Shown: positions 9,130-10,269 of the stretch, one piece after another
Layout: each line of letters begins with the position of its first letter
Position numbering within the stretch: position 1 is the first letter of the stretch
Source of the DNA: Escherichia coli
GTDB lineage: Bacteria > Pseudomonadota > Gammaproteobacteria > Enterobacterales > Enterobacteriaceae
DNA: 64,000 nucleotides
Assembly (NCBI RefSeq): GCF_024502345.1
Contig: NZ_JALDNN010000001.1
Strand: one strand, 5' to 3'
The notes under the pieces: model-generated
The model's database searches: none
The model's input: the letters and a program-made list of their open reading frames with translations, nothing else
What the model was told of the DNA's origin: nothing
Made by a program: the position numbers and the translations under genes

Positions 9130-10269
9130 ATGGAATGCGATCTGCTGATGATTAAAATTGAAAAAGTAATTAATAAAAATGACCTTAAGGCATTTATCGC
9201 TTTTCCGTCATCACTTTATCCCGACGATCCAAACTGGATACCCCCTTTATTCATAGAACGCAACGAGCATTTGTCTGCGAAAAATCCGGGGACGGACCAT
9301 ATCATCTGGCAGGCGTGGGTGGCAAAAAAAGCGGGGCAGATAGTTGGGCGTATTACCGCGCAAATAGATACCTTGCACCGTGAGCGTTACGGTGAAGATA
9401 CCGGTCATTTCGGCATGATTGACGCCATTGATGATCCGCAGGTTTTTGCCGCGTTGTTTGGCGCAGCGGAAGCGTGGTTGAAGTCACAAGGTGCAAGTAA
9501 GATCAGCGGGCCTTTCAGCCTGAATATCAATCAGGAAAGCGGATTACTGATTGAAGGTTTTGACACACCACCCTGTGCGATGATGCCACACGGCAAACCG
9601 TGGTATGCCGCGCATATTGAACAACTGGGTTATCACAAAGGCATTGATTTACTGGCGTGGTGGATGCAGCGAACCGATCTCACTTTCTCTCCGGCGCTAA
9701 AAAAACTGATGGATCAGGTGCGCAAAAAGGTGACCATTCGCTGCATCAATCGTCAGCGGTTTGCCGAAGAGATGCAGATCCTGCGTGAGATTTTCAACTC
9801 TGGCTGGCAGCACAACTGGGGATTTGTGCCGTTTACCGAACATGAATTCGCGACCATGGGCGATCAACTTAAATATCTGGTGCCGGACGATATGATCTAC
9901 ATCGCTGAGATTGATTCTGCACCCTGCGCGTTTATTGTCGGCTTGCCGAACATCAACGAGGCGATTGCCGATCTGAACGGATCGCTCTTTCCCTTCGGCT
10001 GGGCAAAATTGCTGTGGCGTTTGAAAGTCAGCGGTGTGCGAACTGCGCGAGTACCGCTGATGGGCGTGCGCGACGAGTATCAGTTCAGCCGCATCGGCCC
10101 GGTGATTGCGCTGTTATTGATTGAAGCCTTACGCGATCCGTTTGCCCGCCGGAAGATCGAGCGCTGGAGATGTCATGGATCCTCGAAACCAATACAGGCA
10201 TGAATAACATGCTGGAACGCATTGGGGCGGAGCCGTACAAGCGTTACCGATTGTATGAAAAGCAGATTT
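9130..10269 (+). pseudogene. yghO: YghO-like GNAT-fold acyltransferase; frameshift near 10165 separates the last ~35 codons
   Basis: Frame 1 ends RKIERWRCHGSSKPIQA at 10203; +2 frame continues EMSWILETNTGMNNMLERIGAEPYKRYRLYEKQI to stop at 10267-10269, a typical GNAT C-terminus; consistent with a 1-nt deletion. Confidence 0.6.

What the first reader, a model, noticed from the sequence alone, without database searches (positions are those of the whole stretch)
10140..10269. yghO C-terminus is encoded in a different frame (1-nt deletion near 10165)
Frame 1 ends with the implausible tail RKIERWRCHGSSKPIQA, whereas the +2 frame encodes a typical GNAT C-terminus EMSWILETNTG...YKRYRLYEKQI up to 10269. 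Inserting one base after GAG CGC would give ...RRKIERLEMSWILE... This is either a pseudogene or an assembly error.
Basis: seen in the sequence. Interest (0 to 1): 0.35.

Follow-up and report, generated by a model that had tools for sequence, protein, structure and literature searches.

The report
Real frameshift pseudogene of yghO
A single missing T has broken yghO, the E. coli counterpart of the bacterial ceramide synthase; the same broken allele recurs in many independent assemblies, so it is an ordinary inherited pseudogene and not a sequencing error.

Summary
yghO reads in frame from 9130, then runs into 14 aberrant residues and a stop at 10201-10203. The genuine C-terminus continues in the other frame to the stop at 10269-10271. 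The cause is one missing T between 10160 and 10161 (GATCGA[T]GCGC). The exact 357-aa product is on record on 39 contigs. All 13 independent metagenome or SRA contigs fetched that span the site carry the deletion. A second frameshift, in the neighbouring epi gene, is nested within this lineage. None of 5,426 complete RefSeq E. coli genomes has the allele. The lost 37 residues include one of the family's three invariant positions (N355). They form the last strand-helix-strand of the C-terminal domain of a confidently modelled tandem-GNAT fold. YghO is the published ortholog (44% identity) of Caulobacter Aca/bCerS and sits in the five-gene dihydroceramide cluster. This lineage has therefore probably lost ceramide synthesis. 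K-12 (IS5-linked deletion) and G3/10 (cluster missing next to an IS1) damaged or lost the cluster in other ways. This is ordinary gene decay, of low novelty.

The parts
9130..10203 (+). Frameshifted yghO ORF: 343 native residues plus 14 aberrant residues (ERWRCHGSSKPIQA), stop TGA at 10201-10203
   Evidence: the exact 357-aa product is on 39 public contigs
10160..10161 (+). Site of the 1-nt deletion: intact alleles have a T between these two bases (codon 344 GAT, Asp)
   Evidence: alignment; searches place the indel at window 10160
10161..10271 (+). Stranded 3' end of yghO in the -1/+2 frame: codons A345-I380 (10161-10268) plus the native stop TAA at 10269-10271; identical to intact alleles
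6126..7041 (-). epi (CerR / CC_1164 / ECD_02852 homolog) of the same ceramide cluster, also frameshifted: an extra A at 6936-6937 (+ strand) gives a 41-aa stub in place of 304 aa
   Evidence: shared with L003, L006, L007 and L014-L018
7038..8726 (-). aasR (fatty acyl-AMP ligase / specialised acyl-ACP synthetase), intact; part of the cluster
   Evidence: PMC9386255
5846..6094 (-). acpR (specialised acyl carrier protein), intact
   Evidence: PMC9386255
4674..5846 (-). spt (serine palmitoyltransferase), intact 390-aa ORF
   Evidence: PMC9386255
10278..11042 (-). glcC, convergent neighbour whose stop lies 6 nt beyond the native yghO stop; the frameshift has no downstream gene to be polar on

Best explanation
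This is a genuine, inherited loss-of-function allele of yghO. A spontaneous deletion of one T in codon 344 (GAT) shifts the reading frame. The product carries 343 native residues and 14 nonsense residues, and it lacks the last 37 residues. Those residues form the final strand-helix-strand (roughly beta5-alpha4-beta6) of the C-terminal GNAT domain of a tandem-GNAT acyltransferase. They also include some of the most conserved positions of the family. The truncated protein most likely cannot fold or bind acyl donor properly and is inactive; this step is inferred. YghO is the E. coli ortholog of Caulobacter Aca/bCerS, the N-acyltransferase that makes (oxidised) ceramide from the Spt product. The lineage has therefore most likely lost the ability to complete ceramide synthesis. 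Consistent with relaxed selection on the pathway, a sub-lineage that includes this window later acquired a second frameshift in the reductase gene epi/cerR. Shown: the lesion, its reproducibility, the nesting, the conservation and the fold. Inferred: loss of activity and the phenotypic consequence.
For: Lesion: the single T missing at 10160/10161 is the only difference from the intact allele across the aligned 3' end, and there are no substitutions anywhere in yghO versus strain M8. Reality of the allele: the exact 357-aa product is indexed in 80 blocks and seen on 39 contigs from NCBI, Logan and ENA. All 13 fetched contigs that span the site carry the deletion. They come from different samples and carry SPAdes-style, MEGAHIT-style, scaffold and Logan record names. 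Within yghO they differ from the window by at most one substitution, while their flanks are 99.66-99.99% identical. Nesting: every contig with epi(+A) that reaches yghO also has the yghO deletion, whereas L004, L005 and L010 have the deletion with epi intact. Derived state: 4,548 of 5,426 complete E. coli genomes match the gene, and none shares the deletion allele (best matches 151/152). Homologs at about 80% identity across Enterobacterales, and 6,516 representatives at 50% clustering, extend to within 0-4 residues of the C-terminus. Importance of the lost part: N355 is invariant and E347, W350 and L352 are at least 90% conserved in 118 diverse sequences. The AF2 model (pLDDT 96.7, pTM 0.93) shows strand 345-352, helix 356-364 and strand 368-379 are removed. 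The fold matches tandem GNATs with probability 1.0. Function: PMC9386255 lists 'aca: CC_1154, yghO ECD_02850' in a five-gene dihydroceramide cluster and reports E = 1e-107, 44% identity and 98% coverage against CC_1154. The gene order spt-acpR-epi-aasR / yghO is present in the window. bCerS biochemistry and localisation are described in PMC11087976.
Against: No raw reads of the source genome were available, so the window's own base call was not verified directly. No activity data exist for E. coli YghO, intact or truncated; PMC9386255 only says ECD_02850 'might be' the N-acyltransferase. The lineage carrying the allele could not be named. The junction sequence was not found in the JGI metagenome collection or the species-representative genome collection. 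It is not known whether the cluster is expressed in E. coli at all. The stranded tail has accumulated no further mutations, so the event is recent and decay cannot be shown from the tail itself.
Confidence: 0.92

Rival explanations
1. Assembly or sequencing error: the T is present in the real genome and was dropped by the base caller or assembler.
For: Single-base indels are the commonest assembly error. None of the 5,426 complete genomes has the allele. No reads could be inspected.
Against: The same deletion is found in 13 contigs from independent samples, with record names from several assemblers. It sits on slightly different flanking haplotypes. The context GATCGA[T]GCGC is not a homopolymer. 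Over 20.5 kb the window differs from a 99.25%-identical genome by only 7 indels; 4 are intergenic and 1 is the other genome's own annotated frameshift. The allele co-segregates in a nested way with a second frameshift. A recurrent artefact would not show that pattern.
Confidence: 0.02
2. Programmed -1 ribosomal frameshifting, or transcriptional slippage, restores full-length YghO from the shifted gene.
For: The two frames overlap by about 80 nt (10122-10203), so a -1 shift there would in principle yield a near-native protein.
Against: There is no X XXY YYZ heptamer and no homopolymer run of 4 or more bases in the overlap. There is no Rfam family match. The downstream RNA folds no better than shuffled sequence, z = -0.35. 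The in-frame arrangement is the rule in thousands of E. coli genomes and all other homologs, so the arrangement is not conserved.
Confidence: 0.02
3. The truncated 357-aa protein keeps a function, or reassembles with a separately translated 33-aa C-terminal peptide (ATG at 10170). On this view the gene is altered, not dead.
For: The N-terminal GNAT-like domain and most of the C-terminal domain remain. An ATG-initiated ORF 10170..10271 encodes the last 33 residues. A GGAG lies at 10166-10169.
Against: The GGAG abuts the ATG with zero spacing, which is a poor ribosome-binding geometry; this rests on established knowledge of Shine-Dalgarno spacing. The lost segment contains core strands and an invariant residue. 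The later decay of epi in the same lineage fits a dead pathway.
Confidence: 0.04

Closest known systems
Intact E. coli YghO (WP_000388786.1, 380 aa; ECD_02850 in BL21(DE3))
   Same: Identical in DNA across the whole gene except for the one missing T, with the same neighbours (aasR upstream and divergent, glcC downstream and convergent).
   Different: The reading frame is lost after residue 343, and 37 conserved C-terminal residues are replaced by 14 unrelated ones.
Caulobacter crescentus Aca / bCerS (CC_1154), the bacterial ceramide synthase
   Same: Full-length ortholog according to PMC9386255 Table S2: E = 1e-107, 44% identity, 98% coverage. It is clustered with spt, acpR, aasR and epi/cerR, as in Caulobacter.
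   Different: The E. coli enzyme has not been assayed, and in this window it is truncated. In Caulobacter the aca gene lies a few genes away from the spt operon, not adjacent to aasR, judging by the locus numbers.
Tandem-GNAT acyltransferases with solved structures (2wpw/2wpx, MAB_4324 7q3a, glucosamine N-acetyltransferase 5kf1, mycothiol synthase MshD 1ozp/2c27)
   Same: Same two-domain GNAT architecture: Foldseek probability 1.0, E from 1e-15 to 1e-12, TM about 0.5-0.7.
   Different: Only 10-14% sequence identity. There are extra insertions (380 versus about 300-340 residues). The substrates differ. No Pfam GNAT profile reaches significance on E. coli YghO.
E. coli K-12 yghO locus (IS5-associated deletion yghQ'-yghO)
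   Same: It is another lineage-specific lesion of the same cluster. K-12 lacks spt, acpR, epi and aasR, and its yghO 5' end is altered next to an IS5.
   Different: The mechanism is an IS-linked deletion at the 5' side, not a point frameshift at the 3' side. K-12 yghO is still annotated as a protein (WP_000626849.1).

Membership tests
Frameshift pseudogene of yghO | Single-base indel relative to intact orthologs, with the original frame still readable downstream | tested here: met
Frameshift pseudogene of yghO | The allele is reproducible in independent assemblies, so it is not an artefact | tested here: met
   13 independent contigs; 39 contigs on record
Frameshift pseudogene of yghO | The lost segment is conserved and structurally integral | tested here: met
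   N355 invariant; E347, W350, L352 at least 90% conserved; last strand-helix-strand removed
Frameshift pseudogene of yghO | Loss of protein function | not testable with these tools
   Needs an enzyme assay or lipidomics
Bacterial ceramide synthase (Aca / bCerS, CC_1154 family) | Full-length sequence homology to CC_1154 | not tested
   Taken from PMC9386255 Table S2: E = 1e-107, 44% identity, 98% coverage.
Bacterial ceramide synthase (Aca / bCerS, CC_1154 family) | Genomic association with spt, acpR, aasR and epi/cerR | tested here: met
   spt-acpR-epi-aasR lie immediately upstream of yghO, on the opposite strand
Bacterial ceramide synthase (Aca / bCerS, CC_1154 family) | N-acylation of a sphingoid long-chain base | not testable with these tools
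   Not assayed for E. coli YghO even in the literature; PMC9386255 says 'might be'
GNAT superfamily (tandem GNAT) | Two GNAT-fold domains | tested here: met
   AF2 model with pLDDT 96.7; Foldseek top hits are all tandem GNATs at probability 1.0
GNAT superfamily (tandem GNAT) | Significant match to a Pfam acetyltransferase profile | tested here: not met
   No Pfam or NCBIfam hit for E. coli YghO at E <= 0.1. A few homologs at about 80% identity carry a precomputed PF00583 hit.
Programmed -1 ribosomal frameshift site | Slippery heptamer in the overlap of the two frames | tested here: not met
Programmed -1 ribosomal frameshift site | Downstream stimulatory RNA structure or a known recoding element | tested here: not met
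   z = -0.35; no Rfam match
Programmed -1 ribosomal frameshift site | The two-frame arrangement is conserved among homologs | tested here: not met
   homologs are in a single frame

The most novel reading that the evidence does not exclude
The ceramide (sphingolipid) cluster of E. coli may be lost repeatedly and independently because losing it is advantageous in some niches, and not merely neutral. Three events were seen here: a point frameshift in yghO followed by one in epi, the IS5-linked deletion in K-12, and the absence of the whole segment next to an IS1 in G3/10. In addition, 878 of 5,426 complete genomes have no yghO match at all. If loss were adaptive, the yghO deletion lineage would be a natural bCerS-null with Spt, AcpR and AasR intact. 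Such strains could accumulate 3-ketosphinganine, and they could be used to test the disputed order of acylation and reduction in bacterial ceramide synthesis.
Probability: 0.1. Interest if true: 0.4.

Novelty: already known. Interest (0 to 1): 0.13.

Why it matters
The finding matters mainly for annotation. The locus should be labelled as a frameshifted yghO pseudogene, not as a 357-aa protein plus a 33-aa ORF, and it should not be 'corrected' as an assembly error. It also marks an E. coli lineage in which two of the five dihydroceramide genes (yghO/aca and epi/cerR) are inactivated. This adds to evidence that the cluster is dispensable in E. coli and is repeatedly lost. Strains with this allele would be natural mutants for anyone studying whether E. 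coli makes sphingolipids.

Tried and rejected
- Pfam, NCBIfam and PDB sequence searches with intact YghO gave no significant hit. The GNAT assignment had to come from structure prediction and fold search.
- The exact junction sequence gave 0 hits in JGI metagenome contigs and 0 in the species-representative genome contigs, so the carrying lineage could not be named that way.
- The alternative-start product (MIKIEK..., 351 aa) is not on record.
- I suspected a Shigella origin because of the IS elements and pseudogenes. This was not supported. The far end of the window is 100% identical to E. coli G3/10 and to ST536 O21:H9 isolates, and the database names for related truncated proteins are all E. 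coli.
- Programmed frameshifting and RNA-element explanations were tested and rejected.
- The yghO literature search returned mostly irrelevant hits. The mBio 2018 acetyltransferase screen only lists yghO among the overexpression constructs.

Full report
**Observation.** The window holds an ORF at 9130..10203 (+) of 357 aa that ends ...RRKIERWRCHGSSKPIQA*. A second frame reads ...ALEMSWILETNTGMNNMLERIGAEPYKRYRLYEKQI*, with its stop at 10269-10271. The region matches yghO in 4,548 of 5,426 complete RefSeq E. coli genomes. The best matches span one more base than the query. Alignment with the intact allele of strain M8 (380 aa, WP_000388786.1) shows a single difference: a T is missing between window 10160 and 10161, in GATCGA[T]GCGC. 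The intact protein reads ...RRKIDALEMSWILE.... The lesion lies about 5 nt upstream of where it was placed, and the restored residues are D-A-L, not E-R-L. The product keeps 343 native residues, gains 14 aberrant ones and loses 37.

**Real mutation or assembly error?** No complete E. coli genome in the collection matches the 151 bases around the site perfectly; the best matches are all 151/152. That alone would fit an error. An exact-sequence look-up of the 357-aa frameshifted product says otherwise. It finds the product in 80 index blocks and on 39 contigs from NCBI, Logan and ENA sources. Nine loci fetched through yghO (L003-L011), and four more reached through the neighbouring gene (L014, L015, L016, L018), all carry the deletion at the DNA level. 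They come from different samples, and their record names indicate different assemblers. Within yghO they differ from the window by 0-1 substitution, while their flanks are 99.66-99.99% identical. The sequence context is not a homopolymer. Over 20.5 kb the window differs from a 99.25%-identical complete genome by only seven indels. Four of these are intergenic and one is the other genome's own annotated frameshift. Assembly error is therefore rejected.

**A second, nested frameshift.** One of the seven indels is an extra A at 6936-6937. It truncates the NAD-dependent epimerase/reductase gene (6126-7041, minus strand) to a 41-aa stub ending just after its GxxGxxG motif, where the intact protein has 304 aa. 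This allele too is absent from all complete genomes, with best matches of 150/151. Every public contig that has it and reaches yghO also has the yghO deletion. Three contigs (L004, L005, L010) have the yghO deletion with the reductase intact. The order of events is therefore yghO first, then epi in a sub-lineage that includes the window. Independent recurrent artefacts would not produce this pattern; inheritance would.

**What was lost.**
- YghO is about 80% identical across Enterobacterales, and those homologs (374-381 aa) cover the C-terminus.
- An exhaustive search of representatives clustered at 50% identity finds 6,516 relatives at E <= 0.001. The full-length ones are about 370-400 aa and align to query residue 376-380, nearly all to 378-380.
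- In an alignment of 118 diverse members only three columns are invariant. One of them, N355, lies in the lost segment, together with E347, W350 and L352 at 90% conservation or more.
- AlphaFold2 on that alignment gives a very confident model (pLDDT 96.7, pTM 0.93) with two alpha/beta domains. The frameshift removes strand 345-352, helix 356-364 and strand 368-379.
- Foldseek against the PDB returns tandem-GNAT acyltransferases at probability 1.0. These are the clavulanate-pathway tandem GNAT, MAB_4324, glucosamine N-acetyltransferase, mycothiol synthase MshD, VipF, Eis and FemX.

From established knowledge of GNAT architecture, beta4 and beta5 splay to hold the acyl-CoA, and the beta5-alpha4 region usually carries catalytic residues. 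Losing the last strand-helix-strand should therefore abolish folding or catalysis. This step is inference.

**Function and context.**
- One complete genome annotates the upstream aminotransferase as serine palmitoyltransferase.
- Padilla-Gomez et al. [quoted passage not shown]
- Their Table S2 gives E = 1e-107, 44% identity and 98% coverage between Caulobacter CC_1154 and ECD_02850.

The window has the same gene order, with spt, acpR and aasR intact and yghO and epi frameshifted. The most likely consequence is that this lineage cannot complete ceramide synthesis. Activity of E. coli YghO has not been demonstrated by anyone. The paper says only that the gene product 'might be' the N-acyltransferase.

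**Other ways E. coli has lost this locus.** K-12 has an IS5-associated deletion that removes the genes between a truncated yghQ and yghO and alters the yghO 5' end. Strain G3/10 is 100% identical to window 40000-64000, apart from an IS-like insertion in the window. G3/10 lacks the whole yghQ-to-sslE segment, with an IS1 lying at the breakpoint. In all, 878 of 5,426 complete genomes have no yghO match. The cluster is clearly dispensable and repeatedly lost.

**Rivals.**
- Programmed -1 frameshifting is not supported. There is no slippery heptamer or homopolymer run in the 10122-10203 overlap. There is no Rfam match. The downstream RNA folds no better than shuffled sequence (z = -0.35). The two-frame arrangement is not conserved.
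- Reassembly with a separately translated 33-aa peptide (ATG at 10170) is unlikely, because the only Shine-Dalgarno-like GGAG abuts the ATG.

**Limits.** I could not inspect reads. I could not name the lineage: the junction pattern gave no hit in the JGI metagenome or species-representative collections. I could not test activity.

**Verdict.** This is a genuine, recent, lineage-specific frameshift pseudogene of yghO, the putative bacterial ceramide synthase. It is accompanied by a later frameshift in the pathway's reductase gene. It is an ordinary case of gene decay that annotation pipelines would flag as 'frameshifted'. Novelty is low and interest is about 0.13.

Noticed in passing
window 6126-7041 (-), extra A at 6936-6937: There is a second frameshift in the same ceramide cluster. 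The epi/cerR homolog is cut to a 41-aa stub, where the intact protein has 304 aa. The allele is absent from all 5,426 complete genomes but is shared with eight of the fetched public contigs. It is nested within the yghO-deletion lineage.
   Followed up: yes
window 20185-25548: sslE (yghJ) is truncated to its first ~105 codons (the ORF 20185-20601 matches SslE profile positions 1-104). The break is at about 20507, where a 215-bp IS30-like fragment (20507-20721) begins. It is followed by an inverted segment carrying a methyl-accepting chemotaxis protein gene (21400-23082, minus), an IS26-like piece (23381-24030), an IS3-family transposase fragment (24079-24513) and an integrase fragment (24940-25548, minus). 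This looks like a rearrangement hot spot.
   Followed up: partly
window ~26600-39000: This is a genomic island with a type I restriction-modification system (the HsdR-like 1038-aa ORF 26630-29746, plus M and S subunits) and DUF262/DUF927 genes. It is only about 94-96% identical to islands that lie at other chromosomal positions in other E. coli.
   Followed up: partly
window 40000-64000; locus L019/L020 (E. coli G3/10): This stretch is 100% identical to the probiotic-component strain G3/10 and to ST536 O21:H9 mussel isolates. G3/10 lacks the entire yghQ-yghO-glc-sslE segment, and an IS1 lies at the breakpoint next to the dTMP-kinase-like gene. That is an independent loss of the ceramide cluster in a close relative.
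   Followed up: partly
window 43573-44629: About 1.06 kb here is present in the window but replaced by about 0.35 kb in the otherwise identical G3/10 sequence. It encodes a 322-aa DDE transposase (Pfam DDE_Tnp_1_5 and DDE_Tnp_1), so it is probably an IS insertion.
   Followed up: partly
window 44-4639 (+): Directly beside the ceramide genes lie a MOP-type flippase (yghQ-like), a 274-aa protein with no Pfam hit, a YtfJ-family protein, and paralogs of LptF and LptG. This gene set could plausibly export the lipid made by the cluster. No transporter for bacterial sphingolipids has been identified, according to PMC11087976.
   Followed up: no
loci L003, L014, L015, L017 versus L004-L007 (just upstream of window position 1): The yghQ-like flippase gene is called as 399 aa in some deletion-carrying contigs and as 449 aa in others. 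This hints at a further lesion or a start-codon change in part of the lineage. The site lies outside the window.
   Followed up: no
locus L012 (E. coli K-12 MG1655): K-12 has an IS5 between a truncated yghQ and yghO. The spt, acpR, epi and aasR genes are missing, and the first codons of yghO differ from those of other strains.
   Followed up: partly
window 59221-59996 and 50725-51705: The window carries an IS1 copy (InsB-like ORF 59476-59979) and an IS5-like ISKpn26 transposase gene (50725-51705, minus). Public contigs L009 and L011 break at IS sequences inserted at other positions near yghO and in glcA, which shows ongoing IS activity in this lineage.
   Followed up: partly
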